Source: a candidate division WOR-3 bacterium (GTDB lineage Bacteria; Hydrothermota; Tepidihabitantia; SM23-42; JAOAFX01). Taken from it: a stretch of DNA of 64,000 nt. This document shows positions 3,933 to 49,859 of this stretch, one piece after another. Numbering within the stretch: the stretch's first letter is position 1; the number at the start of each line of letters is the position of its first letter. Both the position numbers and the translations under genes were made by a program. The notes beneath the pieces are model-generated. The model did not search any database, was not told the origin of the DNA, and worked only from the letters and a program-made list of their open reading frames with translations. The stretch spans positions 11,388-75,387 of the forward strand of contig JBDRWD010000003.1 in NCBI GenBank assembly GCA_039802205.1, in the 5' to 3' direction.

Positions 3933-3950
3933 TTGCAAGGTAGGTTGATA

Positions 3951-5852: not shown

Positions 5853-5865
5853 ACCAGGAGGCTAA

Positions 5866-6687
5866 GTGGGTTATCAAGAATTTTATCAACTAAAGTTTGA
5901 GCCGTTTGCAAATCTTCCCGACCCGAAATTTTATTTTAATTCACCACAACATGCACTCGCTAAGGAGTATCTGATGCATGCGGCACGGGGCACGAGAGGA
6001 TTGGCGATATTGTTGGGTGACATTGGCACGGGTAAGACAATGTTGGTGCGTAAATTATTAACCGAACTTCAAACCACTGGAAAATTTCAGGTGGGAATGA
6101 TCGTTTTGACTCACTCCGATTTTCCCACCAATTGGCTTTTTTCAAAGATTGCCAATCTTATCGGATTGAGTGATTTAGGAACAACAACTACCGAAATAAT
6201 CTCGCGCATATCAAACCGCTTACGAGAGATATACCGACGGAATGAAAGAACTGTTATAATCATTGATGAGGCAAATAAGTTAAAAAGTCCGGATATTCTT
6301 GAAGAAATCCGGGGTTTATTGAATTTAGAAATTGCCGACACCAGACTGATCTCATTTATTCTAAGTGGTTTACCAGAACTGGAATCATTTTTGATGATGA
6401 ACCGGGCACTTTATCAACGGATCGCCGTGAAGGTAAAATTAAAACCCATGGGCAGCGAGACGATTCGGGCCTACATTGCCCATCGCCTGAAAATTGCCGG
6501 TGCCCAACGTCCGATTTTCACCCCAATGGCGCAGGAGATCATCTGTAGATATTCTGAAGGTAGACCGCGCCTCGTCAATATTATCTGTGATAATGCCCTG
6601 CTGGAGGGATATGTCCAGCGAAAGCAGACGATTGACGAGGCCGTTGTTGAACGAGTGATAAGCAATTTAGGTTTGAGATTTGAATAA
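5866..6687 (+). CDS. ExeA/GspA-like AAA+ ATPase (AAA_22 type), paralog 1
   Basis: 273 aa, GTG start after AGGAGG. N-terminal FY.L...PF....DPKFYFNSPQHALA, Walker A GDIGTGKT, Walker B IIIDEAN and the C-terminal motif ICDNALLEG are as expected for the ExeA family. Confidence 0.75.
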   Translation: MGYQEFYQLKFEPFANLPDPKFYFNSPQHALAKEYLMHAARGTRGLAILLGDIGTGKTMLVRKLLTELQTTGKFQVGMIVLTHSDFPTNWLFSKIANLIGLSDLGTTTTEIISRISNRLREIYRRNERTVIIIDEANKLKSPDILEEIRGLLNLEIADTRLISFILSGLPELESFLMMNRALYQRIAVKVKLKPMGSETIRAYIAHRLKIAGAQRPIFTPMAQEIICRYSEGRPRLVNIICDNALLEGYVQRKQTIDEAVVERVISNLGLRFE

Positions 6688-8558: not shown

Positions 8559-8571
8559 AAAGGAGTAGAGA

Positions 8572-9384
8572 TTGGGATACGAAAGTTTTTATAAATTAAA
8601 AGAACACCCCTTCAGTTTTACCACTGATGAAAAATTCTATTATAATTCACCACAGCATGCCAAGGCATTGGCAAAACTTACCCATGCGGTGGAGACGGAG
8701 AAAGGATTGGCTTTGTTGATCGGCGACATCGGAACCGGGAAGACGACGCTTTCCCGCCGATTGCTGGACCAGTTGATCAGCAATAATGTGGAAGCCACGC
8801 TGCTGGTTATTATCCACTCTGAAATAACTTCACTATGGTTTCTTAAAAAAATCGCTCTGATGCTTGAAACACCGGTGGAATCCGACAATAAGATTGAAAT
8901 CATTACCGCCGTCTATCATCGGTTGCTTGATCTGGCGAGCAAGAATAAAAAAGTTGTCATTCTAATTGACGAAGCAAATATGCTCCAGCGCAAGGATTTG
9001 ATGGAAGAAATACGGGGTTTATTAAATCTTGAATCCGAACATGGCAAACTTTTGAATTTTATTCTTTTTGGTCTACCGGAGATGGAAGATTATCTGAAGC
9101 TCGATCCACCCCTTTACCAGCGTGTTGCCGTTCGTTGCGTTCTGGAGGCATTGGATCAGGAGACGACCCATAATTATATTGTCCACCGGCTTCGGGTGGC
9201 GGGTTGTGCACGTCCGCTTTTCACGGGTGGGGCAATGAAGGCGATTTATCAATATTCAAAAGGTGTCCCCCGGACGATAAATGCGATCTGTGACAATGCT
9301 TTGCTTGAAGGTTTCCTTTTGAAAAAAGAAATCGTTGATGAAAAAATCATTCTGGATGTTTGTCGCGATCTCGGGCTAACTTAG
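8572..9384 (+). CDS. ExeA/GspA-like AAA+ ATPase, paralog 2
   Basis: 270 aa, TTG start after AAGGAG. It has MGYESFYKLKEHPF...KFYYNSPQHAKAL, GDIGTGKT, ILIDEAN and ICDNALLEG. By eye it is roughly 45 percent identical to 5866-6687. Confidence 0.75.
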   Translation: MGYESFYKLKEHPFSFTTDEKFYYNSPQHAKALAKLTHAVETEKGLALLIGDIGTGKTTLSRRLLDQLISNNVEATLLVIIHSEITSLWFLKKIALMLETPVESDNKIEIITAVYHRLLDLASKNKKVVILIDEANMLQRKDLMEEIRGLLNLESEHGKLLNFILFGLPEMEDYLKLDPPLYQRVAVRCVLEALDQETTHNYIVHRLRVAGCARPLFTGGAMKAIYQYSKGVPRTINAICDNALLEGFLLKKEIVDEKIILDVCRDLGLT

Positions 9385-35039: not shown

Positions 35040-36401
35040 CTAAAGTAAATACTCAGCGGGGTTGAGATCGTACTTTTGGGGATAAACTGGCCGGATGATA
35101 TTTAACCTTTTTTCCTGGCTAAGATCAATGACTGGACCCGCAATTTTTTGTTTTCTATTGTTCATTACGATTTTGATTACGGGGCGGTCAATGTGCACAG
35201 GATTCTGGTGGATCACCACCGCGATTTCTGCATTATCCAGTTCAAGACAACTGCTTACCGGGTAAACGCCCAGGATTTGAATAAAGACTTTGACCAGGAT
35301 CGGGTCAAAATAGGAGCCGGCGTGGGACCATATCACCCGAATCGCCACCGGAGGTGGATAGGGCAAAATCTGGTAGGGACGGGAGGTGGTCATGGCATCA
35401 TAGGCATCGCAGATGCGGATGATACGGGCAAATAAATTGGGTTGCATTTTCGGATCGAACCGGTCTGGATACCCGGTACCATCGTAATTCCAGTGATGTT
35501 GATAGGCGGCGAGAAATGCAGCAAAAGAGATATCATCGAGACCTCGAGTCTTGATTATTTCGTTCACACCGAAGGTGGAATGTTTTTTCATGATCTCCCA
35601 TTCTTCCTCAGTAAGGCTCTGGGCTTTATCAATGAGCGCTTTAGAAATGGCTACCTTCCCGATATCATGGAGTAGCCCAGCGGTACCCAATTTTACGAGG
35701 TTTTTCCGGTCTAAATCCAGCCGTTGCCCCAGGGCTAAGGATAAAACTCCTACATTAAGTGAATGGTTATAAGTATATTCATCAAAATTTTTTATCGAGG
35801 TCAGAGCGATTAAGCCGAATTCATCCTGGCTTAGACTATCAATCAGTGTATAGACTACACGCCGGAAACTTCGAGTATCCACTGACTGCCGAGCCCAGAG
35901 GTGCTGGATTAAATTTTTCGTTACTTTTAACGCCTTGAAGTAGGTTTTTTTTACCTGCTCACCGTTTTTGAGAAATTCAGGTACCGGTTCTTCTTCTTGG
36001 GTGTAGAATTCCACAGTGATCGAAGGAAAATTTATACGCTGGTATTCACTGATAAAACCTTCCCGGTTCAATTTAAATAGCGTGGCAAACTTTAATATTT
36101 CGCTGGCTTTCAAACCCGGGAAAAAAGTTATCGTTTTTATCCCCAATCTTTTCAGATTTTCCTCCAGAAATTGCAGACTGGCATACCCTTCAATTTCAAA
36201 ACGCATCCGTATTTTATTGAAGAAGATATAATCCCGATATCTTAATATTTCAATCTGGTTGTTTGTCTGGAACAAAGTTTTTATAAGATTGAAGAATTTA
36301 TTTAACAGATTGATTACGACATCGTTATTGAATTCATAGACAAATGTCGCTTTGATTAAGGTATAAAAGTTCGCGATGAAATCTTTACCGAATTTATACA
36401 T
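35040..36401 (-). CDS. HD-GYP domain phosphodiesterase with an uncharacterised N-terminal module
   Basis: 453 aa. It has LLHDIGKV and HHWNYDGTGYP. It overlaps the upstream HEAT gene by 8 nt. Confidence 0.8.
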   Translation of the reverse strand: MYKFGKDFIANFYTLIKATFVYEFNNDVVINLLNKFFNLIKTLFQTNNQIEILRYRDYIFFNKIRMRFEIEGYASLQFLEENLKRLGIKTITFFPGLKASEILKFATLFKLNREGFISEYQRINFPSITVEFYTQEEEPVPEFLKNGEQVKKTYFKALKVTKNLIQHLWARQSVDTRSFRRVVYTLIDSLSQDEFGLIALTSIKNFDEYTYNHSLNVGVLSLALGQRLDLDRKNLVKLGTAGLLHDIGKVAISKALIDKAQSLTEEEWEIMKKHSTFGVNEIIKTRGLDDISFAAFLAAYQHHWNYDGTGYPDRFDPKMQPNLFARIIRICDAYDAMTTSRPYQILPYPPPVAIRVIWSHAGSYFDPILVKVFIQILGVYPVSSCLELDNAEIAVVIHQNPVHIDRPVIKIVMNNRKQKIAGPVIDLSQEKRLNIIRPVYPQKYDLNPAEYLL

Positions 36402-37950
36402 TTTTTAACTCCGTCGGGATAAACTTCAAAGCTGTTTCACAAACCGCCTTGATATCTTCGTTGCGCTTTTTTATTCCCCTTTTGAGGACCGCTATGGCTC
36501 GGTCGTTGCCGATCTTCGCAAGCGCACGCGCTGCTAATTGTCTTTTTATTAGATACCTTTTTTTGTTGAGCAAAACCCATTTGAAAAGTATACTCGCTAA
36601 GTCATTAATCAATTTATTGTTACCACTGGCAACCAGACAATCGAAATACGCCTTTTGTTCAGTATAATTAAGTTCAAAAAATTTTCGGTGTTTAATGGTT
36701 TTGATCAGTTTTGAATAAATGGGTGGGTAATTGAGTTTCGTCAAGGCAGTGAGGGCTCGGATTCTTACACTCTCATCGCTGTCTTCGAGGAAGGTGGAAA
36801 TTGCTTTTGCATCCTCAAGTTCTGAGAGGGCTTCAATTATTGCAGACCGTACCAGGGGTGAAGGATGTAAGGAAAGGGTTTTTAGGTGATTTTTTGCTCC
36901 AGGATTTTTGATCATTCCTAAGATCACAATAGCATTGGCTAAGGTTTTGATATCCCGTTCTTTTAAAAAAGGCATGACCGGTTCAATATCACCCTGACAA
37001 ATATAAGCAAGTCGCGCCTGGAGAGGGCGTAGACGTTCTTCATTTGCAATATTCTTGAGTATTTTAATAAACCAGGGCACAGCCTTTTTTGAGAAAAAGC
37101 CAACCAGGGCGATGAAATCGGAGAATGACTGTTCATCAAGTATATCCGGAATTCCAGCAAATCCCATCACTAATTCTTCGTTTTCAATTTGGGTCACCAG
37201 ATTGATATCAGCATAATTCCACAGGTAATTCACAATCATATTGGCGTTTTTAAAATCTTGAGTATTTAGACAAATTTCAAGTATCTCGGCAAGGGCTTCA
37301 ACAACCTCTTGGGTTTTGATATTTTTGTAAACATCAAGTAATACCTTGGTGACTATTTCAAAATCAGTCTGGTTTTCAATCTCAGCTATAGCGTTTTTTA
37401 GTATTCGGAGTTCATCCGGATTTATCTCCACCGGGATGCGGTCCTGAAAATCGATTTTTTCTCTTGCTAATATTTCATTAATTGCCGCATCGTAATTTAT
37501 GTCCAATTTGGGTAATTCGGGTAAGGTATAAGCTAACTTTTCTTCTTCCTCTTCTTCCACTACATAAAAATTGATATGGGAAAAGTCACATTCCCATAAA
37601 TTAAGAGCGATATCCTGGTCTCGCTCGGCACGGCTGATTATTTCTATAAACATTAACAATTCATCCTCAGTGAGTCCCTCGGTAAATTTGATCTCCCTTA
37701 TTCCATCTTTGAATAGCCTGAAGGCAATGCTGATATCTTTTTCGGTTTCTTCATAAATGGTCGTATTTTCATGCCGGAGGGCAAAACGTTCAATTTGTAG
37801 AATTAAATGGTAATTGATTTTTAAATACTCGGTGAGGTCTAAAAAAAATTGAAGGAAAAAACTTTTAAAGGTGGGATGGATGGTTTGGTAGATCTGGGCG
37901 GCTTTTATTGTTTTGACTAGTCCGATTGTTAAGTCTGGTATACTTACCAT
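36394..37950 (-). CDS. HEAT-repeat protein with an N-terminal module shared with the HD-GYP protein
   Basis: About 518 aa. C-terminal HEAT/PBS-lyase-type repeats (LHPSPLVRSAIIEALSELEDAKAI..DSDESVRIRALTAL). The ATG is at 37950; the track ORF starts one codon earlier at a TTG. Confidence 0.7.
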   Translation of the reverse strand: MVSIPDLTIGLVKTIKAAQIYQTIHPTFKSFFLQFFLDLTEYLKINYHLILQIERFALRHENTTIYEETEKDISIAFRLFKDGIREIKFTEGLTEDELLMFIEIISRAERDQDIALNLWECDFSHINFYVVEEEEEEKLAYTLPELPKLDINYDAAINEILAREKIDFQDRIPVEINPDELRILKNAIAEIENQTDFEIVTKVLLDVYKNIKTQEVVEALAEILEICLNTQDFKNANMIVNYLWNYADINLVTQIENEELVMGFAGIPDILDEQSFSDFIALVGFFSKKAVPWFIKILKNIANEERLRPLQARLAYICQGDIEPVMPFLKERDIKTLANAIVILGMIKNPGAKNHLKTLSLHPSPLVRSAIIEALSELEDAKAISTFLEDSDESVRIRALTALTKLNYPPIYSKLIKTIKHRKFFELNYTEQKAYFDCLVASGNNKLINDLASILFKWVLLNKKRYLIKRQLAARALAKIGNDRAIAVLKRGIKKRNEDIKAVCETALKFIPTELKNV

Positions 37951-37957
37951 CAATGAT

Positions 37958-39214: not shown

Positions 39215-40093
39215 GTGGCGATGTATAGTATGACTGGAATCGGTCGGGCAAGTGGGACGATCAAAAGTCCACCGATAAAATTTGATGTGGAAATAAGGTC
39301 CTACAATCATCGTTTTTTGGATATTTCTTTGAAATTACCTAGCTCTTTCAGTCCTTTTGAGGATGAAATAAAGAAAATTCTCCAAAAGAATCTCTGCCGG
39401 GGACATATCGTTGTTGTTGTGCAACAGGACCGGGAGATTTTAGGCAACAGATTTGAGGTTGATAAAGAATTATTGGATGCGTACCTTACGGTCGCACGCT
39501 CGATCAAAAAGAAATATAAATTGGCTGGCTCATTAAATATCAACACCATACTGGCGATTCCCGGGTTGATAAAAATCAGTCAATCTCAGACTGATACCAG
39601 CCTGATATTCAAAAATTTTAAACCAATTTTTATGCGGGCACTCCGGGAATTGTTGAAGACTAAAAAAAGAGAGGGCGAGCATACGAAACAGGAAATTTTT
39701 AAAATTCTTGGCGATATTGAAAGGGAAGTAGAGAAGATAAAAGAGATGATCCCGGAGCGCAACATCTATTATAAAAAACATCTTGATAACCTGACCAAAG
39801 AATTTAACGAAAACCTCGACCGGACGCGGCTCTATCAGGAAATACTCTACATTGCGGACCGAACCGATGTCTCTGAGGAATATGCAAGGCTTCTTGGGCA
39901 CATTGACCTTTTCAAAGATACCCTGACTCATGAGAAATATCCTGGACGTCGTTTGAATTTTCTGCTCCAGGAGATGCAGCGGGAGGCGAATACTTTGAGT
40001 GTGAAGGCAAATTATTTAAAAATTAGTGAATCGGTGGTAAATATAAAAGAGGCGATTGAGAAAATTCGGGAGCAAATTCAGAACATTGAATAA
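39215..40093 (+). CDS. yicC: YicC-family stress-induced protein
   Basis: MTGIGRA at the N-terminus and DVSEEYARLLGHIDLF...LNFLLQEMQREANT at the C-terminus. Confidence 0.85.
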   Translation: MAMYSMTGIGRASGTIKSPPIKFDVEIRSYNHRFLDISLKLPSSFSPFEDEIKKILQKNLCRGHIVVVVQQDREILGNRFEVDKELLDAYLTVARSIKKKYKLAGSLNINTILAIPGLIKISQSQTDTSLIFKNFKPIFMRALRELLKTKKREGEHTKQEIFKILGDIEREVEKIKEMIPERNIYYKKHLDNLTKEFNENLDRTRLYQEILYIADRTDVSEEYARLLGHIDLFKDTLTHEKYPGRRLNFLLQEMQREANTLSVKANYLKISESVVNIKEAIEKIREQIQNIE

Positions 40094-40679
40094 AAAGGCA
40101 AAATTAATTGTCATATCAGGTCCATCGGGCGTAGGTAAGACTACAATCTGTAATGCAATAATCGCCCGTCGGAAAGATATCGTTTACTCCATTTCGGCGA
40201 CCTCTCGGCCAAAAAGAAAGGGTGAGGTGGATGGTAGGGAGTATTATTTTTTAACTGAAGATGAGTTTAAACGCTGGATTGCGGATGGTAAATTTGTGGA
40301 ATATGCCCGGGTACACGGGAATTACTATGGCACCCCCCGGGCATTCCTTGAGGAGAATTTAAAAAAAGGCTTTCATGTGCTGATGGATATCGACGTCCAG
40401 GGTGCGAAGAAATTGATGCCCATTTATCCCGATGGAATTTATATTTTCGTCTTACCCCCAGATTTTGATGAACTCAAAAAAAGACTGGTGAAACGCAATA
40501 CCGACGACGAAAAAGAGATTGCAAATAGGCTTAAGAATGCCCACGAAGAACTGAAATATCTGCCAGATTATAAATATGTAGTAAAGAATACAAATCTTGA
40601 GGATGCCGTCACGGAAATTCTGCGGATTATTGATAAAGAGACAAATGAACAGTCCGAAAAGAAACATAAAAACGCATAA
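40056..40679 (+). CDS. gmk: Guanylate kinase
   Basis: GPSGVGKTT, SATSRPKRKGEVDGREYYF and YGT. The start is uncertain; an in-frame TTG at 40086 would reduce the overlap with yicC from 38 nt to 8 nt. Confidence 0.85.
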   Translation: MRKFGSKFRTLNKKAKLIVISGPSGVGKTTICNAIIARRKDIVYSISATSRPKRKGEVDGREYYFLTEDEFKRWIADGKFVEYARVHGNYYGTPRAFLEENLKKGFHVLMDIDVQGAKKLMPIYPDGIYIFVLPPDFDELKKRLVKRNTDDEKEIANRLKNAHEELKYLPDYKYVVKNTNLEDAVTEILRIIDKETNEQSEKKHKNA

Positions 40680-41659: not shown

Positions 41660-41687
41660 TTGACATTTTTAGATTTTTTTATATAAT
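41660..41687 (+). promoter_or_regulatory. sigma70-type promoter (leaderless layout) of the cyclase operon
   Basis: TTGACA, 16 nt, TATAAT, then 8 nt to the ATG at 41696. Confidence 0.6.
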
Positions 41688-41695
41688 ATCTCGTC

Positions 41696-44600
41696 ATGGA
41701 GGAGTGTAAATTTTGTGGCTATAACAAAATTCTTGCATCGTATGAATACTGTCCTAACTGTGGTGCGTTGTTTAGAGCCACTGAGTCCGTTGTCGAGAGT
41801 GAACATGTTAAACTATGGGGTGGAGAGTCTCGGATTGTTACTTTATTTTTTGTGAATTTTATCGCCCCTCGTGCATTCGATGATCCAATAAAAGCAAGAC
41901 AAAACGCCATTTATCTTGCCGAAATTATGAATGATATTGAGAAATTAGTTATTCAACATGGGGGAAGTGCATACAAAATCATCCCGGATAATCGGATATT
42001 GGTCGTTTTTGGTATCCCACGTGCGTCAAAAGAAGACCTCGAACATGCCATTGAGTGTGTCATTGCGGTGCGGGAATATTGTCTCCACAGAATGGACCGC
42101 CGGGATTTTGGGGACTGGCATACAACCTACGGGGTTAATACCGGCTGGGTTTTTTTCGGGTATATTGTTAAAGGACTTTCTTATCTTACAATCATCGGGG
42201 ATACAGTCAATGTTGCAGCAAGAATTGCACAAATCTGTCCGCTGGATCAAATATTTATAAGTGATGCTGTATACGAAAGGATTTCACATTTAGTTGACGC
42301 CGAATTTATAGGAGAGCGAATTTTAAAAGGTCGTGCCCAACCGGTCCGGCTTTATAAATTAAATCAACTTTTGAAGGAAAAAAGGAAGCCAGCAGTATCC
42401 CGGTTCCCACTCTTAGGACGGGAACAGGAATTTGCACGTTTGATTAAGGCCCTGGATACGGTAAAAAAGAGAAAAGTACTTAAAGTTTTTGCTATTACAG
42501 GGCAGATGGGTATTGGAAAAACCCGATTGAAAGAAGAATTTAGAGAATATCTTAGAAAGCAGGAAGACCTTCAGGTATATGAAAGCTATTGTGCATTGGA
42601 AATTCACAGTCCGTATTATCCCTTTAAATTTTTCTTCAGAGAAATCATGGGCATAACAGAAATTGATGATGTGCAAAAAATCATCTACCGGATTGATAAG
42701 TTCGTCCGGGAAAACGGATTGACGGAGCAGGATGCCCAGGGTCTACGATACCTTTTTACTGCTGATACACGCCGGATTCGCGAGGAACGATTGCATAAAA
42801 TTCAGGAGGAGATTTTTAGTGCGGTAAAGAATACGCTTAGTGCCCTGGCGTGCAAGAAGCCACTGGTCTTGATTTTTGAAGAGTTTAATCGCGTCGATAA
42901 TCTAAGTCGGATGTTAGTTTACTTTCTGACACAAAAACTGGCTGATCAGCCAATTTTTATCTTGATGGTCAATTTCATTCCCGATACTGAGTTCAAATTT
43001 AATTTGCCTGTCGAAACAATTGCCCTTAATCCCCTTTCCTTTGAATCGGTATATGCGCTAATTAAGTTTGTTTTGGATAGTGATGTTGATGAACATTTAG
43101 CGGATTTTGTATTCCGGATCTCGGGTGGTAATCCACTTTTTGTTATTGAAACGATAAGGAATATAAAACGGACCCAGATGATTAAAAAGGATGACAAAGG
43201 GAAATGGTTTTTGGAAAGAGAAAAGAGATTGCCTTTTCTTGATGATCTTTATGGGGTGGTTATGTCGGGGGTGGATTCATTACCGGCATCCTATCGTCTG
43301 CTCATTGATTATGCAGCAGTGATTGGATACAGTTTTACTCGGAAAATAATTGCAGGATTATTAAGTGATGTAACAGATATTGAGGAACGGCTAACTTATC
43401 TGGCAAAAGAAGATTATATCGTCCAATTCCGTGATGGCGATGATCCGGTTTATATCTTTCGTCATAATCTGTTACGAGATGCCGTCTATACAACCCTGCC
43501 GATGAAAAAGAGAAAAGAGATCCATAAAAGGGTGGCGGACTTAATTGAGGATAAATATCAGACCTGCCTCACAGAGTATTTTGAGATACTCGCTCAGCAG
43601 TTCCTTGGCGGCGAAGAATTCAAAAAGGCGGCACACTATTTCCGGTTGTCAGGCTATAAGGCAAAGACCCTGTATTCTATCGAATCAGCAATAAATTTTT
43701 TCAATATCATTTTGCGTATAACCGAAGAACATCCTGAAATAATTGAGGAGGATTTAGTCTTAGATGCCCTCCTCAATCTCTGCGATCTTTATGAAATAAA
43801 GGGTGACATTCAACGAATGAAGTCGGTTGCCGAATTGGGTCAAGCGCGCGCAAGCAAATTGAATCTTAAAAATTGGCATTTAAGTTTTCTTGAGCGCCTT
43901 GCTACGGCATTTTATCTTTTAAATGAATACCCTAAAGCTGAAGAGCTATTTATTAATGCCATAGAATCATGTAATAATGAGATGTCAGAAGTTCTGACGG
44001 CGCTCTACACGGGATTGGGCATTCTATACCAGGCAAAAAATGAACCAGAAAAAAGTTTATTAAATTATAATCTTGCCTGGGTAACTGCCCGGAGCAACAA
44101 TTATCAGCAAGGTGAATATGATTGTCTTTTGAATCTTTCCAGGATGCATATCTTACTGGGTAATTATGAACTGAGTCTCGAATATTTGAACTATGCTTTA
44201 AACGAATTGCTGAATGAGGAGGAGATTCTTGAGCAGTCCGAAGTAAAATATCTTATGGGTGAAATATACTACCAGATAGGCAACTACGATTGGGCTGAGA
44301 ATTATTTTCGCGCGGCATTTGATCTAACGCGGCAGTTTGGGTTTGAAATTTCCCTTAGGTCAATCTTGGCACTCACGGTTTTGATGTCTCTGCGGGGTGA
44401 TGAAACTGGGGTGAAAAATAATTTGGACTTCATAGATAAAAATTTACCTCTTTTTGTTCGTGATAATTTGCTTGCCGAGATTAATCTTAAAAAAGGTTTT
44501 GTTTTTAAAAATCTACGGGAAGAAGAAAAAGCAGCAGTCTTTCTCAACAATGCATTGAAACTCATCCAGAAAATCGAGAATAGAGAATTAGAATTCTGGT

Positions 44601-44875
44601 GTCATTTATTCCTCGCGGATTTAGCAGAAATAAAAGCGCTCGATTATTTGAAAAAGGCACTGGACATCGGAGAAATGCTAAAATATCCACCGCTGATTGC
44701 CCATGCCCTTTATAAACTGGCACTGTATTACCAGAAACAGGGAATTCGTGAACAGGCTAATTACTACGGACGGAAAGCACTGTATATTTTGGATGATATA
44801 AAAAATCGGCTAAATCCAGAAAACCGCAAGTATTTCGGCAATAAAACAGAATATGTAACATTATTGGAGATGTAG
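41696..44875 (+). CDS. Zinc-ribbon / class III nucleotidyl cyclase (C2-like) / P-loop AAA_16 NTPase / TPR multidomain protein
   Basis: 1059 aa. C4xxC7...C19xxC22. Cyclase homology domain at about aa 45-225 (IVTLFFVNF..., YKIIPDNRILVVFGIP, TIIGDTVNVAARI). Walker A GQMGIGKT (aa 269-276). The C-terminal 450 aa or so are TPR-like repeats. Confidence 0.8.
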   Translation: MEECKFCGYNKILASYEYCPNCGALFRATESVVESEHVKLWGGESRIVTLFFVNFIAPRAFDDPIKARQNAIYLAEIMNDIEKLVIQHGGSAYKIIPDNRILVVFGIPRASKEDLEHAIECVIAVREYCLHRMDRRDFGDWHTTYGVNTGWVFFGYIVKGLSYLTIIGDTVNVAARIAQICPLDQIFISDAVYERISHLVDAEFIGERILKGRAQPVRLYKLNQLLKEKRKPAVSRFPLLGREQEFARLIKALDTVKKRKVLKVFAITGQMGIGKTRLKEEFREYLRKQEDLQVYESYCALEIHSPYYPFKFFFREIMGITEIDDVQKIIYRIDKFVRENGLTEQDAQGLRYLFTADTRRIREERLHKIQEEIFSAVKNTLSALACKKPLVLIFEEFNRVDNLSRMLVYFLTQKLADQPIFILMVNFIPDTEFKFNLPVETIALNPLSFESVYALIKFVLDSDVDEHLADFVFRISGGNPLFVIETIRNIKRTQMIKKDDKGKWFLEREKRLPFLDDLYGVVMSGVDSLPASYRLLIDYAAVIGYSFTRKIIAGLLSDVTDIEERLTYLAKEDYIVQFRDGDDPVYIFRHNLLRDAVYTTLPMKKRKEIHKRVADLIEDKYQTCLTEYFEILAQQFLGGEEFKKAAHYFRLSGYKAKTLYSIESAINFFNIILRITEEHPEIIEEDLVLDALLNLCDLYEIKGDIQRMKSVAELGQARASKLNLKNWHLSFLERLATAFYLLNEYPKAEELFINAIESCNNEMSEVLTALYTGLGILYQAKNEPEKSLLNYNLAWVTARSNNYQQGEYDCLLNLSRMHILLGNYELSLEYLNYALNELLNEEEILEQSEVKYLMGEIYYQIGNYDWAENYFRAAFDLTRQFGFEISLRSILALTVLMSLRGDETGVKNNLDFIDKNLPLFVRDNLLAEINLKKGFVFKNLREEEKAAVFLNNALKLIQKIENRELEFWCHLFLADLAEIKALDYLKKALDIGEMLKYPPLIAHALYKLALYYQKQGIREQANYYGRKALYILDDIKNRLNPENRKYFGNKTEYVTLLEM

Positions 44876-45517
44876 ATGCTGATTTGCCAGCGCTGCCAAA
44901 ATTCCTTACTTGAAAAATCAAACTTCTGTCCCTATTGTGGTAAAATGCTCTCACCGGAAGGTAAGTTACCTCTGGAAGATATACCTTTAGTTTTTTTGCG
45001 AGCTGATTTATCTGGTTTTACGAGTTTGAGCGAGTCGCTAGAGGCGGAGGATGTGATGCAATTCTTGAATAGCCTTTTTGAAGATTTCTGTAAGATAATA
45101 GAAAAGTACCGAGGCATTCTCTATCAAATAATTGGTGACGAAATCGTCGGTATCTTTGGGTTGACCCACGAAACGGAATATACCCCACATCTTGCGGTTA
45201 TGGCGGTTGAAGAGATAGTAAAGAGGGTAAAAGATTGTGAGCAGATATCCTCTGCATTCAAAGAATGTAAGATAAAATGCGGTATAGAGTTGGCTCAGGC
45301 ATCAATATATAATATTGCGGGTAATCTTCAATCTGCCATAATCGTTACTGACGGTTTTGCCAAGAGTTTAATTTTGCAACGGAATGCAGGTAATAATAGC
45401 GTTTTGGTTGGGGAAACATTTTACCAGGCGACGCGTTCGGTTTTTGAATACGAAGAATATGGGGAATTGGTCGAAAGTCATTTATCAATTCGGGCCTATA
45501 AATTAAAATTGAGGTAG
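44876..45517 (+). CDS. Zinc-ribbon / class III nucleotidyl cyclase domain protein (C1-like)
   Basis: 213 aa. Its ATG directly abuts the upstream TAG. It has C4xxC7...C18xxC21, LVFLRADLSGFTSLSE and YQIIGDEIVGIFG. Confidence 0.75.
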   Translation: MLICQRCQNSLLEKSNFCPYCGKMLSPEGKLPLEDIPLVFLRADLSGFTSLSESLEAEDVMQFLNSLFEDFCKIIEKYRGILYQIIGDEIVGIFGLTHETEYTPHLAVMAVEEIVKRVKDCEQISSAFKECKIKCGIELAQASIYNIAGNLQSAIIVTDGFAKSLILQRNAGNNSVLVGETFYQATRSVFEYEEYGELVESHLSIRAYKLKLR

Positions 45518-45519
45518 TT

Positions 45520-47697
45520 ATGGGTGAGGGACCATCCATTGAATATAAAACTGAATTCATTAAACAACTTGCTTTAGGAATAAATATCTGTCGAATTTAT
45601 CCCCGGGGCCATCCTTCGCTGGAACCGGTTGTCCAGCGCATCAAAATAATGTTAAAAGAACTCCCCATTGAGCAGGAATCAATTTCGCTTGTTGTGATTG
45701 AAGATGTTTTGATGATGGGGGAGGACCGGTTTGATTCCAAAAGATTGCCGCTGGTTAAAAGCTTGGTGGATAGATTCGCGCGCTTGGGAGTGAAGAGTAT
45801 CACATTTAATGTTGATGCCTCAGAGGAAGAAATTCGTGCATTCTTCTTGGCGATGGCCGCAACCCCGGCTGATATTGCGGATTACGGAGATATTGTAGCA
45901 CTGGTGCGGGCGCGGGGGATATTAGGTATCAAAATAAATAAATATCGGGTGGGTGTTGTTTCTTCTGATGAAGAAGTGAGACAATTAGATTGGACAAATT
46001 TCTTAGAATCTTTGGTGATTTCTCATCAGACCTGGAGTGATGAAGATCGGATAAAAAATTTAGGTAATTTTCTCGCTGGTATCGGTGTGCTGGGAAATGA
46101 GACCCCAGAAATACAAACCGAAAAAGTAATCAGTGGCCTGGAAAGGCTTGCGGCATTGATTGCGGATCAATATGGTGAGGAGCGCTGGGATGAATATGCG
46201 GTAATATTTTCCCGGATGCTTGCGGTGATTTCGCCTACCATCAAAAAGAACATCGTCCGGTATAAAACTGAAAATAAAAAACTAGCACTTTTGTTTAAGA
46301 GTTTGATCCCCACCATGCCCGATGAAGATATCATTGACATTATTGCGACCAAAGCCAGAGAGCGGGGACCCCAGGTGGAGGATGAGATAGTAGAAATTCT
46401 GAAAAATATTACCGGCACAAGATTACCGGATATCCTTTCTTCAATAAGGGTAAATATCCCCGAGATCAATTTTGAAAAGATTGTGGCAAGATTGATGAGC
46501 GAAATGAAGGTAACTAAAGGTACGGATGTTGCGGATAAAATAATGGAAAAAAATCTTGAGCAGCAGATGCGCAGTTACTTTCCAAAATTGCGTGATGCCG
46601 CAGCAGCGACGCGGATAGAGGCGATAAATAATTTAATGCAATTCTGTGGAAAAATTTTTGAGGTTAAGAATTATGAACTAGTGCGGTTACTGGTGGATCG
46701 CTTTGATGCCCTGAGTGATACCGAGGAAGATATCAATGTATTTAAAAAAATAATGGAAAGCATGAAAGAATTGTACACCTTAGCACAGAGAAACAATCGG
46801 GAAGAAATAATGCAATTCATTTCTAAGAAATTCGGGAAGCATCTGGTGCGTAAGGAGAAAGCCTTGCTGGAAAAAAAGCATATTGTTATCAAAACCGTCG
46901 CCGAAATCAAAGACCAGAATTATCTGCCAGAACTTATTTCCCTTTTGTGGGATCAAGGTTCTTACGCCCAGGCGCGCGAGGCACTCATCACCATGGCAGA
47001 TTATGCCATTCCGATGCTTGTGGGAACACTTAAGGAGGCTGAAGATAAAGGTGTCCGGATGAAGATCATTGATGTTTTAGTCCACATGGGAGAAAAGGTA
47101 ATCCCTGAGGTGATGAAATTATTGAATTCGCCGGAGTGGTATATTCGAAGGAATGGTATCTATATTCTTGGTGAACTTAAAGCAACCTCGGCGCTTGAAT
47201 ATTTAGGGAAATTGGTTACCGACGAGGATGAACATGTTCAATATGCCGCAATTGAGAGTTTGAATAAAATTGATGGCGAAAGAGTTTATGATTTTATCAA
47301 GTTGGGTTTAAAGAGTAAATATCGCTCGGTTATACTTCTGGCAATGAAATTACTTCCGGCCGAAGATGTGAAAGAGAAATTATTCGAGGTGGCGAACTGG
47401 ATCAGACAGCGAAAGCCTATCCCTGATGAGAAAGAGGAACAATTCCGAAGGTCGGTTATTGAGGTATTAGGAGAAAAAGGCAACGATTCGGTTATTGATT
47501 ATTTAACCGAGGTTTTGGAAGAAAAAGCTTTATTTAAAGGCGAGTTACTACAGCAAACTAAGTTGGTAGCACTGAATGCCCTCGCCCGGATTGGTACACC
47601 TCGGGCGATAAATGTGCTGCGCGATTATTCCAATCATAAAGATGCAGAACTCGCTTCCGCAAGCCGGGAGTTATTGAAAAAGAAAAAAGAAATATAG
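45520..47697 (+). CDS. HEAT-repeat protein, paralogous architecture to 36394-37950
   Basis: 725 aa. Its N-terminal module resembles that of the other HEAT protein and of the HD-GYP protein. C-terminal HEAT repeats (NSPEWYIRRNGIYILGELKA..DEDEHVQYAAIESL). It starts 2 nt after the upstream stop. Confidence 0.7.
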   Translation: MGEGPSIEYKTEFIKQLALGINICRIYPRGHPSLEPVVQRIKIMLKELPIEQESISLVVIEDVLMMGEDRFDSKRLPLVKSLVDRFARLGVKSITFNVDASEEEIRAFFLAMAATPADIADYGDIVALVRARGILGIKINKYRVGVVSSDEEVRQLDWTNFLESLVISHQTWSDEDRIKNLGNFLAGIGVLGNETPEIQTEKVISGLERLAALIADQYGEERWDEYAVIFSRMLAVISPTIKKNIVRYKTENKKLALLFKSLIPTMPDEDIIDIIATKARERGPQVEDEIVEILKNITGTRLPDILSSIRVNIPEINFEKIVARLMSEMKVTKGTDVADKIMEKNLEQQMRSYFPKLRDAAAATRIEAINNLMQFCGKIFEVKNYELVRLLVDRFDALSDTEEDINVFKKIMESMKELYTLAQRNNREEIMQFISKKFGKHLVRKEKALLEKKHIVIKTVAEIKDQNYLPELISLLWDQGSYAQAREALITMADYAIPMLVGTLKEAEDKGVRMKIIDVLVHMGEKVIPEVMKLLNSPEWYIRRNGIYILGELKATSALEYLGKLVTDEDEHVQYAAIESLNKIDGERVYDFIKLGLKSKYRSVILLAMKLLPAEDVKEKLFEVANWIRQRKPIPDEKEEQFRRSVIEVLGEKGNDSVIDYLTEVLEEKALFKGELLQQTKLVALNALARIGTPRAINVLRDYSNHKDAELASASRELLKKKKEI

Positions 47698-47700
47698 CCA

Positions 47701-47773
47701 AGCCAGCGTCCGGATTTGAACCGGAGACCTGCGGTTTACGAAACCGCTGCTCTACCGACTGAGCTACGCTGGC
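47701..47773 (-). tRNA. tRNA-Thr (anticodon CGT)
   Basis: The reverse complement folds as GCCAGCG-TA-GCTC-AGTCGGTA-GAGC-A-GCGGT-TTCGTAA-ACCGC-AGGTC-TCCGG-TTCAAAT-CCGGA-CGCTGGC-T. Confidence 0.9.
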
Positions 47774-47821: not shown

Positions 47822-47849
47822 TTGACATCAATAGATTTTTTAATAAAAT
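47822..47849 (+). promoter_or_regulatory. sigma70-type promoter (leaderless layout) of the GGDEF gene
   Basis: TTGACA, 16 nt, TAAAAT, then 6 nt to the ATG at 47856. Confidence 0.55.
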
Positions 47850-47855
47850 AAAATT

Positions 47856-49859
47856 ATGGAAATGGTTGAGGAAAAAAAACGTCTTGAGCTTTTAAGCCGT
47901 ATTGACCACATTTTGGGCTCCTCATTCAATTTGAGCAAAGTCATCCGGATGATTTACAGAGAAATCAGCAAAGTGATGGATACAAGTAATTTCTATATTG
48001 CACTTTATAACCCCAAAACCCAGACAATTAAATTTGAAATTTATACGATTGAAGGAAGAGAGATTAATCCTATTTCGCGACCCCTTTCGGGAGGGCTTAC
48101 CGAATATGTCATAAAGACCAAAAAGCCACTGCTGATTAATAAAGACCTCAAGAAGTATTGTAGGAAACTTGGTATTACGCCCCAGGGCCGCGATGCCTAT
48201 AGCTGGCTTGGTGTCCCCATGATTTATAAAGGGAATGTTGAAGGGGTAATGACAGTTCAGGATTACGAAAGAGAAAATGCTTATACCTGGGAAGATGAGT
48301 TATTTTTAAGTAATATTGCCACTAAAGCCGCAGTGGTGATTGCCAACACCCGGCTTGTGGAAGAGGAGATACGCAGGGCAAAAGAACTTGAGATGTTAAA
48401 TAAGATAGTGCATCGTCTGACAAAAAGTCTTGATATCCAAGATATTTGCGAAAGCGTTGCGGATTCGATATTGGAATTTTTTAAGCAATTCAATGTAGCA
48501 GTATTCTTACGCGAAGGTGAAGAGTTGGTTTTAAAAAAAATTTCCCGGGGATTTTTAGATAAGATACCGAAAGATTTACGAATAAAAATGGGGCAGGGGA
48601 TAGTGGGTTCTTCGGCAGTAACGGGTGCCACCGTGGTGGTAAATGATGTAACTACAAACCACAGGTATATTGCATTTGGACGAACTTCTACCAGATCCGA
48701 GATAGCAATTCCCTTAAAAATTCATAAAAAACTAATGGGTGTTCTCGATATTCAATGTAATGAGCTGAATGCTTTTGACCCAGAGACGGTGCGCATTTTG
48801 GAATTGATTGCGGACCGTGTGAGTGTGGCATTTCATAATGCGATACTTTATGAAGAAGCGATTGCTCGAACACGGGAATTGACGACTTCTTTCACCATTG
48901 CCCAGTCTTTAGTCTCGACCTTGGAACTTGATGATGTGCTTAAGCGCATTCTTGATTGCATACGCAAAAACTTCGGTTATGAAAACTGCGCTATTTTGCT
49001 CGTTGATAAAAAAACTAATGAACTCTATGTTCAGGCTTCCAGCGGCTATCCCGAATATGTAACAAAAAACATCCGACTTAACATCACAAGAAAAGAAGGA
49101 GTTACCGGTTATGTGGCGGCGACCGGGAAACTCTATTATGTGCCAGACGTTAGAAAATGTCCCTTTTATGTAATGGGCAAAAAAACTATTAAATCCGAAG
49201 CTGCAATTCCCCTGATTGTCCGGGGTGAGGTGATAGGAGTGTTGGACATCGAAAGCGAAAGATTGAATGGGTTTACAGCTAATGATCTTAAGATGCTCAC
49301 GGTATTCGCTTCCCAGGCCGCAATCGCGATTGAGAATGCCCGGCTCTATAACGAGACAAAAGAGATGTCATTAACGGATTCCCTGACCAAAATTGCCAAC
49401 CGCCGGCACTTTGATTTAATATTGGAAAATGAAATCAAAAGAGGCAGGGGTTATGCCCGATATGTGAGTTTGGCGATGATTGATTTAGACCATTTTAAAG
49501 AATTCAACGATAAATATGGGCATCTGGCTGGAGATCAGCTTCTGATTTCCATTGCTGCCAAATTAAAAAACACGGTGCGGGAGACCGACCTCGTTGCCCG
49601 GTATGGGGGTGAGGAATTTGCCATTATTTTTCCGGAGACGCCAAATAGTGCCGCAATTAAGGTGTGTGAGAGGGTGCGGACAGCAGTGGAAAATAATTAT
49701 ATAATTCTAAAAAAATTCGGCAAGGTGGGAACCACCGTTTCAATCGGTCTGGCTACTTATCCTCAATCTGCCCAAAATGCCCAGGAATTGATACAAAAGG
49801 CAGACCGTGCACTGTACATGGCAAAAAGACTTGGGCGAAATCGCGTGGAAACGATTTAA
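47856..49859 (+). CDS. Multi-GAF diguanylate cyclase (GGDEF)
   Basis: 667 aa. Three GAF-like segments are followed by DSLTKIANRRHF...RETDLVARYGGEEFAIIF. The active site is GGEEF, and an RxxD I-site lies 5 residues upstream. Confidence 0.85.
   Translation: MEMVEEKKRLELLSRIDHILGSSFNLSKVIRMIYREISKVMDTSNFYIALYNPKTQTIKFEIYTIEGREINPISRPLSGGLTEYVIKTKKPLLINKDLKKYCRKLGITPQGRDAYSWLGVPMIYKGNVEGVMTVQDYERENAYTWEDELFLSNIATKAAVVIANTRLVEEEIRRAKELEMLNKIVHRLTKSLDIQDICESVADSILEFFKQFNVAVFLREGEELVLKKISRGFLDKIPKDLRIKMGQGIVGSSAVTGATVVVNDVTTNHRYIAFGRTSTRSEIAIPLKIHKKLMGVLDIQCNELNAFDPETVRILELIADRVSVAFHNAILYEEAIARTRELTTSFTIAQSLVSTLELDDVLKRILDCIRKNFGYENCAILLVDKKTNELYVQASSGYPEYVTKNIRLNITRKEGVTGYVAATGKLYYVPDVRKCPFYVMGKKTIKSEAAIPLIVRGEVIGVLDIESERLNGFTANDLKMLTVFASQAAIAIENARLYNETKEMSLTDSLTKIANRRHFDLILENEIKRGRGYARYVSLAMIDLDHFKEFNDKYGHLAGDQLLISIAAKLKNTVRETDLVARYGGEEFAIIFPETPNSAAIKVCERVRTAVENNYIILKKFGKVGTTVSIGLATYPQSAQNAQELIQKADRALYMAKRLGRNRVETI

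What the first reader, a model, noticed from the sequence alone, without database searches (positions are those of the whole stretch)
41660..47697. Operon of two zinc-ribbon class III cyclases with complementary active-site halves, one embedded in a P-loop/TPR (STAND-like) giant, plus a HEAT-repeat partner
What the sequence shows: three genes are packed with 0-2 nt between them (TAG-ATG at 44873-44878; TAG-tt-ATG at 45515-45522) behind one leaderless promoter. Both cyclase proteins begin with a Cys4 ribbon.

Hand alignment to the canonical cyclase homology domain:
- The 1059-aa protein has lost the first metal Asp (FFVN54F in place of FADI). It keeps the substrate Lys (K94), the second Asp (D98), Thr165 at the position of the adenine-specifying Asp (as I recall for class IIIb cyclases), and the transition-state Asn172/Arg176 (GDTVNVAAR).
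- The 213-aa protein keeps both metal Asp residues (RAD44LSGFT, IIGD88E). It has Gln at the Lys position and lacks the Asn/Arg pair (VTDGFAKSLI).

Established knowledge: this is the division of labour between the C1 domain (metal Asp residues) and the C2 domain (Lys, Asp, Asn, Arg) of mammalian adenylyl cyclase.

Inference:
- The two proteins form an obligate heterodimer with a single catalytic site and one degenerate, possibly regulatory, pocket.
- Catalysis would then be gated by the AAA_16 P-loop/TPR sensor part.
- The downstream HEAT protein shares its N-terminal module with an HD-GYP enzyme elsewhere in the window.
- STAND-type P-loop plus TPR is also the sensor layout of antiviral Avs proteins and of MalT/AfsR-type regulators, so a ligand- or invader-triggered nucleotide signal is conceivable but unproven.
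Basis: partly seen in the sequence, partly recalled or inferred. Interest (0 to 1): 0.8.

Follow-up and report, generated by a model that had tools for sequence, protein, structure and literature searches.

The report
Split two-gene cyclase with STAND sensor
A conserved three-gene operon in WOR-3-group bacteria encodes two cyclase proteins that each carry only half of the catalytic residues, so they probably work only as a pair, joined to a STAND/TPR switch and a HEAT-repeat partner, much like a bacterial, split version of mammalian soluble adenylyl cyclase.

Summary
Three tightly packed genes sit behind a perfect sigma-70 consensus promoter that ends 8 nt before the first ATG: L (41696-44875), S (44876-45517) and H (45520-47697).

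L and S are both zinc-ribbon class III cyclase domains. Profile and structure-anchored alignments give complementary residue sets:
- **L:** lacks the first metal Asp (N54). It keeps D98, T165, N172 and R176, all invariant in 29 orthologues.
- **S:** keeps both metal Asp (D44 and D88, invariant in 36 orthologues). It has no Asn/Arg pair.

The nearest non-orthologous zinc-ribbon cyclases all carry the full residue set. The L-S-H order, with gaps of -4 to +10 nt, holds in every related locus examined (WOR-3, TA06, Stahlbacteria). Two deep-branching versions keep the same complementary split.

The best reading is an obligate C1/C2-like heterodimer with one active site and one degenerate pocket. 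It is fused to an intact STAND NTPase plus TPR sensor. H is a scaffold whose undescribed N-terminal module also occurs on HD-GYP enzymes.

Heterodimerisation, product and gating remain inferred. A phage-defence role is disfavoured because the context is housekeeping and no effector is present. This is a new variant of known kinds.

The parts
41660..41687 (+). Sigma-70-type promoter, TTGACA-16-TATAAT. The -10 element ends 8 nt before the L start codon, so the mRNA is leaderless or nearly so.
   Evidence: 12 of 12 consensus match. The same -35/-10/ATG geometry is seen in L006-L015 and L020. The transcription start site itself is inferred.
41696..44875 (+). Gene L, 1059 aa: Cys4 zinc ribbon, C2-like cyclase domain, STAND (AAA_16) NTPase and TPR sensor.
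   Evidence: ORF; Pfam hits; 29 orthologues aligned.
41705..41761 (+). Zinc ribbon of L (C4, C7, C19, C22).
   Evidence: All four Cys are present in every orthologue that has the N-terminus. Weak A2L_zn_ribbon hit.
41837..42361 (+). Cyclase homology domain of L (aa 48-222). N54 replaces the first metal Asp; K94, D98, T165, N172 and R176 are present.
   Evidence: PF00211 E = 7e-12. Alignment to CyaB 3r5g and to the sAC C2 domain. Column counts.
42410..42961 (+). STAND/AAA_16 NTPase core of L (aa 239-422). Walker A is GQMGIGKT (aa 269-276); the Walker B-like motif is LVLIFEE (aa 390-396).
   Evidence: AAA_16 57.7 bits. Both Walker motifs are essentially invariant in 27 orthologues.
43793..44872 (+). 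TPR sensor region of L (about aa 700-1059).
   Evidence: TPR_12, TPR_2 and a weak TPR_MalT hit. PDB matches are to TPR proteins only.
44876..45517 (+). Gene S, 213 aa: Cys4 zinc ribbon plus C1-like cyclase domain. D44 and D88 are kept, Q84 sits at the Lys position, and there is no Asn/Arg pair.
   Evidence: ORF. PF00211 30.4 bits and Zn_Ribbon_1. Alignment to CyaB. Invariant columns. The AF2 model (pLDDT 85) is a complete cyclase fold, with TM up to 0.89 against the target.
45520..47697 (+). Gene H, 725 aa: N-terminal alpha/beta module followed by a long HEAT-type alpha-solenoid.
   Evidence: ORF. HEAT_2 93 bits. More than 120 orthologous clusters at 48-82% identity. AF2 model pLDDT 84. Foldseek returns only HEAT scaffolds such as PP2A-A, SF3B1 and CAND1.
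45541..45984 (+). N-terminal 'YPxGHP' module of H (aa 8-155; Y27, P28, G30, H31 and P32 invariant). This domain is undescribed.
   Evidence: 131 representative clusters. Partner domains among 65 scanned: HEAT 43, HD-GYP 6, PAS-histidine kinase 5. No Pfam or PDB relative.
35040..37953 (-). Related two-gene pair elsewhere in the window: a 519-aa HEAT protein (36394-37953) overlapping by 8 nt a 453-aa HD-GYP phosphodiesterase (35040-36401). Both carry the same N-terminal module as H.
   Evidence: Pfam. Module HMM E = 3.5e-10 and 2.8e-14. The same pair recurs in L056-L058.

Best explanation
L, S and H form one transcription unit that encodes a split class III (IIIb, sAC-like) nucleotidyl cyclase.

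**Shown**
- Both L and S contain a cyclase homology domain behind a zinc ribbon.
- S keeps the two metal-binding Asp residues but lacks the transition-state Asn/Arg pair.
- L lacks the first Asp but keeps the Thr, Asn and Arg, plus K or R at the substrate position in most orthologues.
- The STAND Walker motifs are intact.
- The three genes are always adjacent.

**Inferred**
- The two domains pair head-to-tail, like C1 and C2 of mammalian cyclases.
- This gives one complete active site (S: D44, D88; L: K94, T165, N172, R176) and one degenerate pocket (L: N54, D98; S: Q84, F161/A162, L165/I166).
- The residues lining that pocket are conserved within the core family, which suggests a regulatory ligand site.
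- Neither protein is expected to be active as a homodimer.
- The STAND NTPase and TPR sensor of L would couple an unknown ligand or protein signal, through nucleotide-dependent opening or oligomerisation, to cyclase output.
- H would act as a protein-binding scaffold or regulator. Relatives of H partner with HD-GYP phosphodiesterases and chemotaxis genes.
- The product is probably cAMP, given the K/T class IIIb signature, but this is uncertain because the Lys position varies.
For: **Domains and catalytic residues**
- Pfam hits and residue mapping on CyaB and sAC.
- L: D98, T165, N172 and R176 are invariant in 29 orthologues, whereas Asp1 is N/S/Q/R/G, with D in 2.
- S: D44, Q84 and D88 are invariant in 36 orthologues, and neither register gives Asn/Arg.
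- S is a full cyclase fold.
- The nearest other zinc-ribbon cyclases (P0028-P0053) all carry the full D-K-D-N-R set, so the split is specific to this family.

**Gene order**
- L-S-H synteny holds in 36 of 36 loci, with gaps of -4 to +10 nt.
- It holds reciprocally when starting from H orthologues.
- Other neighbours are not conserved.

**Deep-branching triads (L052, L054)**
- They keep the same division of labour even though other residues drift.

**STAND part**
- Walker A and B motifs are invariant.

**Precedents**
- sAC and PfAC-beta spread the catalytic motifs over two domains, and their Thr marks sAC-like class IIIb enzymes (PMC3383692).
- Full-length sAC is C1-C2 followed by a STAND P-loop region (PMC12802110).
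Against: - There is no direct evidence of an L-S complex or of activity.
- The substrate 'Lys' is K or R in 25 of 29 orthologues, with E, Q, Y or D in the other four.
- Two of 29 L orthologues retain Asp1, so L homodimers might work there.
- In L052, L has W at the Lys position and K at the Arg position, and neither L nor S has a recorded PF00211 hit. That lineage may keep the triad without catalysis.
- No cNMP receptor is encoded in the operon or in the window ORFs scanned.
- The role of H is inferred from its fold and from the contexts of its relatives only.
Confidence: 0.6

Rival explanations
1. Pseudo-enzyme pair. The L and S cyclase domains no longer make a cyclic nucleotide. They form a nucleotide- or ligand-binding module that feeds a signal into the STAND switch, with H as the output scaffold.
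For: - The Lys position is variable, and Asp2 or Arg is lost in the deep-branching L054/L052 proteins.
- L052's L and S have no recorded PF00211 hits, yet the triad is kept.
- Inactive cyclase domains that may bind nucleotide or act as dominant negatives are described in other STAND/NTPase systems (PMC7159879).
- No cNMP receptor is present in the operon.
Against: - Every residue needed for one complete site is invariant in trans across 29-36 orthologue pairs at only about 40% overall identity.
- This includes both metal Asp of S and the Asn/Arg of L, which matter for chemistry rather than for binding alone.
- P is about 1.7e-4 that L's four retained positions are invariant by chance.
Confidence: 0.13
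2. L is the enzyme. It acts as a homodimer or oligomer brought together by the STAND part. S is a regulatory subunit, for example a dominant-negative cap or an activator, rather than an obligate catalytic half.
For: - STAND proteins oligomerise, which would bring L cyclase domains together (established knowledge; PMC6468293 is listed).
- L keeps D98 invariantly, and 2 of 29 orthologues keep Asp1.
Against: - Asp1 is absent in 27 of 29 L orthologues and takes six different residues. This is not the pattern of a site under selection.
- S keeps exactly the two Asp that L lacks. A pure inhibitor would not need them.
- Loss of one metal Asp normally abolishes class III activity (established knowledge).
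Confidence: 0.12
3. Anti-phage defence system. A Pycsar-like cyclase or Avs-like STAND sensor detects an invader protein through the TPR region and emits a nucleotide alarm.
For: - The STAND plus TPR layout resembles Avs sensors.
- Both proteins give PADLOC PycC matches (E = 1.6e-7 to 5.7e-6, 24-29 bits) and H gives a HEAT-ARM hit.
Against: - The PycC scores are at the level of generic cyclase-domain similarity.
- No effector (cNMP-binding plus TM or TIR) is present in or next to the operon.
- Flanking genes are housekeeping: dtd, yicC, gmk, rlmN-like, nadE-like, Lon, Hsp20.
- The triad shows lineage-wide conserved synteny and is found on complete chromosomes.
- There are no relatives in viral contigs.
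- H is the most conserved of the three proteins, unlike fast-evolving defence genes.
Confidence: 0.05

Closest known systems
Full-length mammalian soluble adenylyl cyclase (ADCY10, sACfl)
   Same: - Two non-identical class IIIb cyclase domains whose catalytic motifs are divided between them.
- A Thr at the purine-specifying position.
- The C2-type domain is directly followed by a STAND P-loop region (PMC12802110; PMC3383692).
- L's cyclase domain aligns to sAC residues 279-460, which is the C2 domain.
- One active site plus one degenerate pocket. In sAC that pocket binds bicarbonate (own knowledge).
   Different: - Here the C1-like half is a separate 213-aa protein encoded downstream, not an N-terminal fusion.
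- Both halves carry zinc ribbons.
- A dedicated HEAT protein is co-encoded.
- S shows no specific similarity to sAC C1 (no hit at E <= 0.1), so the split probably arose independently.
Bacterial cyclase-ATPase(AAA_16/NB-ARC)-TPR proteins, such as M. tuberculosis Rv0386/Rv1358/Rv2488c (own knowledge), and the TIGR03903 TOMM kinase/cyclase fusion family
   Same: - N-terminal class III cyclase domain fused to a MalT-like STAND NTPase and a TPR region.
- L matches TIGR03903 over aa 66-650 (E = 1.3e-42).
   Different: - Those proteins have a single cyclase domain presumed to homodimerise.
- L has lost Asp1 and has a dedicated complementary partner.
- L has no LuxR HTH or kinase domain.
- The TIGR03903 score of 145.8 bits is far below the 705.75 cut-off, so L is not a member.
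Eukaryotic heterodimeric class III cyclases: membrane AC C1/C2, soluble guanylyl cyclase alpha/beta, PfAC-beta, chytrid RGC/NeoR
   Same: - Division of labour between a metal-Asp half and a Lys/Asp(Thr)/Asn/Arg half.
- One catalytic site and one degenerate site.
- S's best partial matches include the AC5 and AC8 C1 domains.
   Different: - Those are eukaryotic.
- In ACs the halves are fused in one chain.
- The partner domains differ (TM, H-NOX, rhodopsin).
- In the searches run here I found no bacterial two-gene example.
Engineered complementary mutants of homodimeric Rv1625c (Guo et al. 2001, own knowledge; the reference is listed in PMC9433096)
   Same: Shows that a bacterial cyclase domain lacking the metal Asp can complement one lacking Asn/Arg to give an active heterodimer with one site. 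This is the mechanism proposed here.
   Different: That system is artificial point mutants of one gene. Here there are two natural, diverged genes (20% identity) kept together across a phylum-level group.
Pycsar PycC cyclases and Avs/AVAST STAND sensors
   Same: Cyclase fold and STAND plus TPR logic.
   Different: - Only weak generic PycC matches.
- No effector gene.
- Housekeeping genomic context.
- No viral relatives.

Membership tests
Class III nucleotidyl cyclase (PF00211, cyclase homology domain) | Sequence match above the Pfam gathering score | tested here: met
   L scores 45.7 bits and S 30.4 bits against a cut-off of 21.9.
Class III nucleotidyl cyclase (PF00211, cyclase homology domain) | Complete cyclase-domain fold | tested here: met
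   The S model (pLDDT 85) matches CyaC, RhGC, CyaB and Rv1900c over 180-200 columns, with TM up to 0.89. L aligns to CyaB over aa 47-222. No model was made for L.
Class III nucleotidyl cyclase (PF00211, cyclase homology domain) | Full catalytic set (2 metal Asp, substrate Lys/Glu, Asp/Thr/Cys, Asn, Arg) within one protein, as in homodimeric bacterial enzymes | tested here: not met
   L lacks Asp1 and S lacks Asn/Arg. The set is complete only across the two proteins.
Class III nucleotidyl cyclase (PF00211, cyclase homology domain) | Head-to-tail dimer forming the active site at the interface | not testable with these tools
Class III nucleotidyl cyclase (PF00211, cyclase homology domain) | Cyclic nucleotide synthesis | not testable with these tools
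   Needs an enzyme assay.
Class IIIb (sAC-like) subclass | Thr in place of the purine-specifying Asp | tested here: met
   T165 is invariant in 29 L orthologues and in both deep-branching L proteins. Literature marker: PMC3383692.
Class IIIb (sAC-like) subclass | Closest solved relatives are class IIIb enzymes | tested here: met
   L's top hits are CyaB 3r5g (E = 3.8e-12), the sAC C2 domain and CyaC.
Class IIIb (sAC-like) subclass | Bicarbonate/CO2 or pH responsiveness | not testable with these tools
   Biochemical property.
STAND NTPase with TPR sensor (MalT-like, AAA_16) | AAA_16 / P-loop domain above cut-off with intact Walker A and B | tested here: met
   AAA_16 scores 57.7 bits against 32.6. 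GQMGIGK[T/S] and hhhhFEE are essentially invariant.
STAND NTPase with TPR sensor (MalT-like, AAA_16) | C-terminal repeat sensor | tested here: met
   TPR_12 scores 49.7 bits against 30.1; TPR_2 28.5 bits.
STAND NTPase with TPR sensor (MalT-like, AAA_16) | Ligand- and ATP-dependent oligomerisation | not testable with these tools
   Needs biochemistry.
TIGR03903 TOMM kinase/cyclase fusion | Score above the NCBIfam cut-off, and an N-terminal kinase domain | tested here: not met
   145.8 bits against 705.75. The match covers only the cyclase-NTPase part, and there is no kinase.
Pycsar anti-phage system | PycC cyclase plus an adjacent effector with a cNMP-binding domain fused to TM or TIR | tested here: not met
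   PycC hits are weak (24-29 bits). The neighbours are H (HEAT), a tRNA and housekeeping genes.
Avs/AVAST STAND defence | Match to Avs models, an effector domain (nuclease, protease and similar), and a defence-island or mobile context | tested here: not met
   No Avs model hit in PADLOC. Conserved chromosomal synteny among housekeeping genes.
HEAT-repeat alpha-solenoid proteins | HEAT repeats above cut-off and a solenoid fold | tested here: met
   HEAT_2 scores 93.2 bits. The model is all-alpha from aa 158 to 725. Foldseek returns PP2A-A, SF3B1 and CAND1.

The most novel reading that the evidence does not exclude
This is a natural prokaryotic 'split sAC'. It would be an obligate two-gene C1/C2-type cyclase heterodimer whose single active site is switched by a STAND/TPR sensor and whose conserved degenerate pocket is a regulatory ligand site. 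It would work together with a previously undescribed family of HEAT scaffolds. Their N-terminal YPxGHP domain would be a general docking module for second-messenger enzymes: cyclase here, HD-GYP phosphodiesterases and chemotaxis kinases elsewhere.
Probability: 0.3. Interest if true: 0.8.

Novelty: new variant of a known kind. Interest (0 to 1): 0.6.

Why it matters
Bacterial class III cyclases are generally treated as homodimers with two equivalent sites. Asymmetric one-site heterodimers are regarded as a eukaryotic elaboration (membrane ACs, sAC, sGC).

A conserved bacterial operon that splits the active site between two genes shows that the same solution arose in bacteria. It also gives a small, soluble system for studying three things:
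- How a degenerate pocket regulates the active one.
- How a STAND NTPase controls a cyclase domain. This is an open question for full-length mammalian sAC, where no STAND-specific regulator has been found (PMC12802110).
- What the co-conserved HEAT protein does.

The work also uncovers an unannotated N-terminal domain shared by HEAT proteins, HD-GYP phosphodiesterases and PAS-histidine kinases. It further shows that HEAT/HD-GYP gene pairs recur. Together these hint at a scaffold layer in bacterial second-messenger signalling.

Tried and rejected
- **Heterodimer model.** No dimer model exists.
- **L cyclase-domain search.** Searching the large protein database with the L cyclase domain alone returned only short proteins and missed the full-length orthologues. 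I recovered the orthologues from genome loci instead.
- **STAND/TPR region against the PDB.** Only generic TPR hits appeared.
- **Foldseek with the whole H model.** Only generic HEAT solenoids came back, and the N-terminal module could not be searched separately.
- **H module profile against the PDB and Pfam.** Only spurious hits appeared.
- **Papers.** The text of the actinobacterial cyclase survey (PMC2447327) is not held beyond its references. Four literature searches found no natural bacterial two-gene cyclase heterodimer. This shows absence in this library only.
- **Defence-system reading.** Considered and rejected on genomic context, the lack of an effector, and no viral relatives.
- **Apparent L truncations.**
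  - L034 is a masked N-run.
  - L026 and L031 are contig ends.
  - L001/L002 carry a 1-nt indel.
- **GAF-GGDEF as a fourth member.** Rejected as a universal partner. It occurs in only 8 of 55 loci.
- **Regex for HD-GYP motifs.** A first attempt found nothing. A corrected one worked.

Full report
**1. What is there**

The window is an ordinary chromosomal stretch of a candidate division WOR-3 bacterium.

- L: 41696-44875, 1059 aa.
- S: 44876-45517, 213 aa.
- H: 45520-47697, 725 aa.

Their junctions are TAG|ATG (0 nt) and TAG-TT-ATG (2 nt). SD-like GGAG and GAGG lie inside the preceding genes.

A perfect TTGACA-16-TATAAT promoter (12/12) lies at 41660-41687 and ends 8 nt before the L start codon. 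The same -35/-10/ATG geometry is kept in the close clade of orthologous loci. More distant loci have ordinary leaders. 'Leaderless' is therefore a reasonable inference for this clade.

The unit is bounded downstream by a convergent tRNA-Thr(CGT) at 47701-47773. The next gene, a GAF-GAF-GGDEF, has its own promoter.

**2. Domains**

- L combines a Cys4 ribbon, PF00211 (aa 48-222, 45.7 bits), AAA_16 (aa 239-422, 57.7 bits) and TPR repeats.
- S combines a Cys4 ribbon and PF00211 (30.4 bits). Pfam matched only its N-terminal half.
- An AlphaFold2 model of S built from 24 orthologues (pLDDT 85) is a complete cyclase fold. It matches CyaC, RhGC, CyaB and Rv1900c over 180-200 columns.
- H has C-terminal HEAT repeats. 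Its model shows an N-terminal alpha/beta module (aa 7-140) followed by an all-alpha solenoid. That model resembles only generic HEAT scaffolds.

**3. The catalytic residues**

I anchored both proteins on P. aeruginosa CyaB (3r5g).

| Canonical position | L | S |
|---|---|---|
| Metal Asp 1 | N54 | D44 |
| Substrate Lys | K94 | Q84 |
| Metal Asp 2 | D98 | D88 |
| Purine-specifying Asp/Thr | T165 | I155 or A154 |
| Transition-state Asn | N172 | F161 or A162 |
| Transition-state Arg | R176 | L165 or I166 |

The L column comes and the S column. The two S registers differ by one residue, and neither gives Asn or Arg.

The closest non-orthologous zinc-ribbon cyclases in the database (P0028-P0053) all carry the full D-K-D-N-R set. 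The split is a derived feature of this family.

**4. Conservation**

A scan of species-representative genomes with the S alignment returned 31 loci from WOR-3, TA06 and Stahlbacteria. Metagenome contigs added five more.
- In all 36 loci the order is L-S-H, with intergenic gaps of -4 to +10 nt.
- Starting instead from H orthologues, S and L are again immediately upstream.
- No other neighbour is conserved beyond close relatives. The flanking genes are housekeeping, such as rlmN-like, NAD synthetase, PolX, Lon and Hsp20.

Across 29 L orthologues:
- D98, T165, N172 and R176 are invariant. All four are among only 22 invariant positions out of 181 in the domain (P about 1.7e-4).
- The Asp1 position is N16, S7, Q2, D2, R1, G1.
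- The 'Lys' position is K11, R14 and four others.

Across 36 S orthologues, D44, Q84 and D88 are invariant and no Asn/Arg appears.

Two deep-branching versions of the triad keep the same division of labour:

| Locus | L protein | S protein |
|---|---|---|
| L054 | Both Asp lost (K, N); K, T, N, R kept | D, D kept; Asn to E, Arg to L |
| L052 | Asp1 is G; T and N kept; Arg to K | D, D kept; Asn to L |

**5. Mechanism**

Established knowledge is that class III active sites form at a head-to-tail dimer interface. One subunit supplies the two Asp and the other supplies Lys, Asp/Thr, Asn and Arg.

Given the conserved complementary loss, the most economical reading is an obligate L-S heterodimer with one catalytic site and one degenerate pocket. 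This is as in membrane AC C1/C2, sAC, sGC and PfAC-beta (PMC3383692).

Residues lining the degenerate pocket (L D98, S Q84, S F161) are invariant in the core family. That suggests the pocket is used rather than merely decayed. This point is inference.

The invariant Thr and the best matches to CyaB, sAC C2 and CyaC place L in class IIIb. cAMP is therefore the likeliest product, and bicarbonate or pH is a candidate modulator. The K/R variability leaves the substrate open.

The STAND core looks functional, since Walker A GQMGIGK[T/S] and Walker B hhhhFEE are invariant. Nucleotide- and ligand-dependent switching of the attached cyclase domain is plausible but untested.

**6. The HEAT partner**

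H is the best conserved of the three proteins: 46-82% identity in the loci, and more than 120 orthologous clusters.

Its first 150 or so residues carry an invariant Y-P-x-G-H-P motif.
- The module occurs in 131 representative clusters.
- Of 65 scanned, it is usually followed by HEAT repeats (43). It also occurs on HD-GYP phosphodiesterases (6) and PAS-histidine kinases (5).
- It has no Pfam family and no solved relative.

An HMM of the module hits just two other window proteins:
- The HD-GYP enzyme (35040-36401, E = 2.8e-14).
- The 519-aa HEAT protein that overlaps it by 8 nt (36394-37953, E = 3.5e-10).

HEAT plus HD-GYP gene pairs in which both partners carry the module recur in unrelated contigs (L056-L058). 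Another module-HEAT protein sits beside cheW-cheY-cheA (L055). H-type proteins therefore look like scaffolds or regulators attached to signalling enzymes. L and S themselves lack the module.

**7. Rivals**

- **Pseudo-enzyme sensor pair.** This is possible, above all in L052. It fits poorly with the invariance of the chemistry residues.
- **L as the sole enzyme, regulated by S.** This does not explain why S keeps exactly the two Asp that L has lost.
- **Defence role (Pycsar/Avs-like).** This is disfavoured:
  - The PycC matches are weak and generic.
  - There is no effector gene.
  - The chromosomal context is housekeeping.
  - The triad is present across the whole lineage.
  - There are no viral relatives.

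**8. Comparison with known systems, and novelty**

- Cyclase-STAND-TPR fusions are known. Examples are the mycobacterial Rv0386 type (own knowledge) and TIGR03903, where L scores 145.8 bits against a 705.75 cut-off and so is not a member.
- Full-length sAC is C1-C2 followed by a STAND region whose regulator is still unknown (PMC12802110).
- Asymmetric cyclase heterodimers are known in eukaryotes, and engineered Rv1625c mutants show the principle (own knowledge; the reference is listed).

What appears new:
- A natural bacterial split of the active site over two adjacent genes.
- Its coupling to a STAND sensor.
- The obligatory HEAT partner with an undescribed domain.

Four literature searches found no such case. 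That is absence in this library, not proof.

I rate this a new variant of known kinds, with interest about 0.6.

Noticed in passing
window 45541-45984; also 35040-36401(-) and 36394-37953(-): An apparently undescribed N-terminal domain of about 150 aa with a near-invariant Y-P-x-G-H-P motif. It occurs in 131 representative protein clusters, ahead of HEAT repeats, HD-GYP domains or PAS-histidine kinases. It has no Pfam family and no solved relative.
   Followed up: partly
window 35040-37953 (-); loci L056-L058: A 519-aa HEAT protein and a 453-aa HD-GYP phosphodiesterase overlap by 8 nt, and both carry the YPxGHP module. The same two-gene pair recurs in unrelated contigs, including one with the same 8-nt overlap.
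   Followed up: partly
window 47856-49859 (+); L008, L011-L015, L050, L052: A GAF-GAF-GGDEF diguanylate cyclase follows the triad. It has its own promoter (47822-47849), whose -10 ends 6 nt before the ATG. A homologue lies downstream of the triad in 6 close-clade loci and in two of the divergent-triad loci (L050 and L052, about 30% identity), but not in most intermediate loci. It may be a receptor for the cyclase product, or the linkage may be coincidental.
   Followed up: partly
window 47701-47773 (-): tRNA-Thr(CGT) is convergent with H and starts 4 nt after the H stop codon. It has its own 11/12 promoter with an extended -10 at 47809-47782. No intrinsic terminator is predicted after H.
   Followed up: no
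window 40056-40679; L052 and L054 upstream; L050 and L052 downstream: Purine-nucleotide genes recur near the triad: gmk in the window clade, purH upstream in L052/L054, and guaA downstream in L050/L052. This could be chance among housekeeping genes or a hint about the substrate pool.
   Followed up: no
L001/L002 4821-7998: In one metagenomic lineage the L gene is split into two overlapping ORFs by a single extra T within ...ATTGGTTGTAAAT.... This is either an assembly error or a pseudogene. S and H are intact there.
   Followed up: partly
window 41969-41995 (L aa 92-100): In L and all its orthologues the canonical cyclase 'xxGD' motif is replaced by 'I-x-P-D-x' with a one-residue insertion (IIPDNRIL against FIGD-AVMAV) next to the retained second Asp.
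   Followed up: no
window 3933-9384 (+): A tandem duplicated gene pair: a TPR protein (639 aa) with an AAA_22/AAA_16 NTPase (273 aa), then again a TPR protein (623 aa) with an AAA_22 NTPase (270 aa). This looks like a split STAND-like arrangement.
   Followed up: no
window 59353-61959 (-): An 868-aa ORF in which the enolase C-terminal barrel domain (aa 262-555) precedes an enolase N-terminal domain fragment (aa 684-786). This is the reverse of the normal order.
   Followed up: no
L055 696-6665: An 897-aa YPxGHP-module HEAT protein lies directly upstream of a cheW-cheY-cheA-cheC/X cluster. This extends the association of the HEAT family with signalling enzymes.
   Followed up: no
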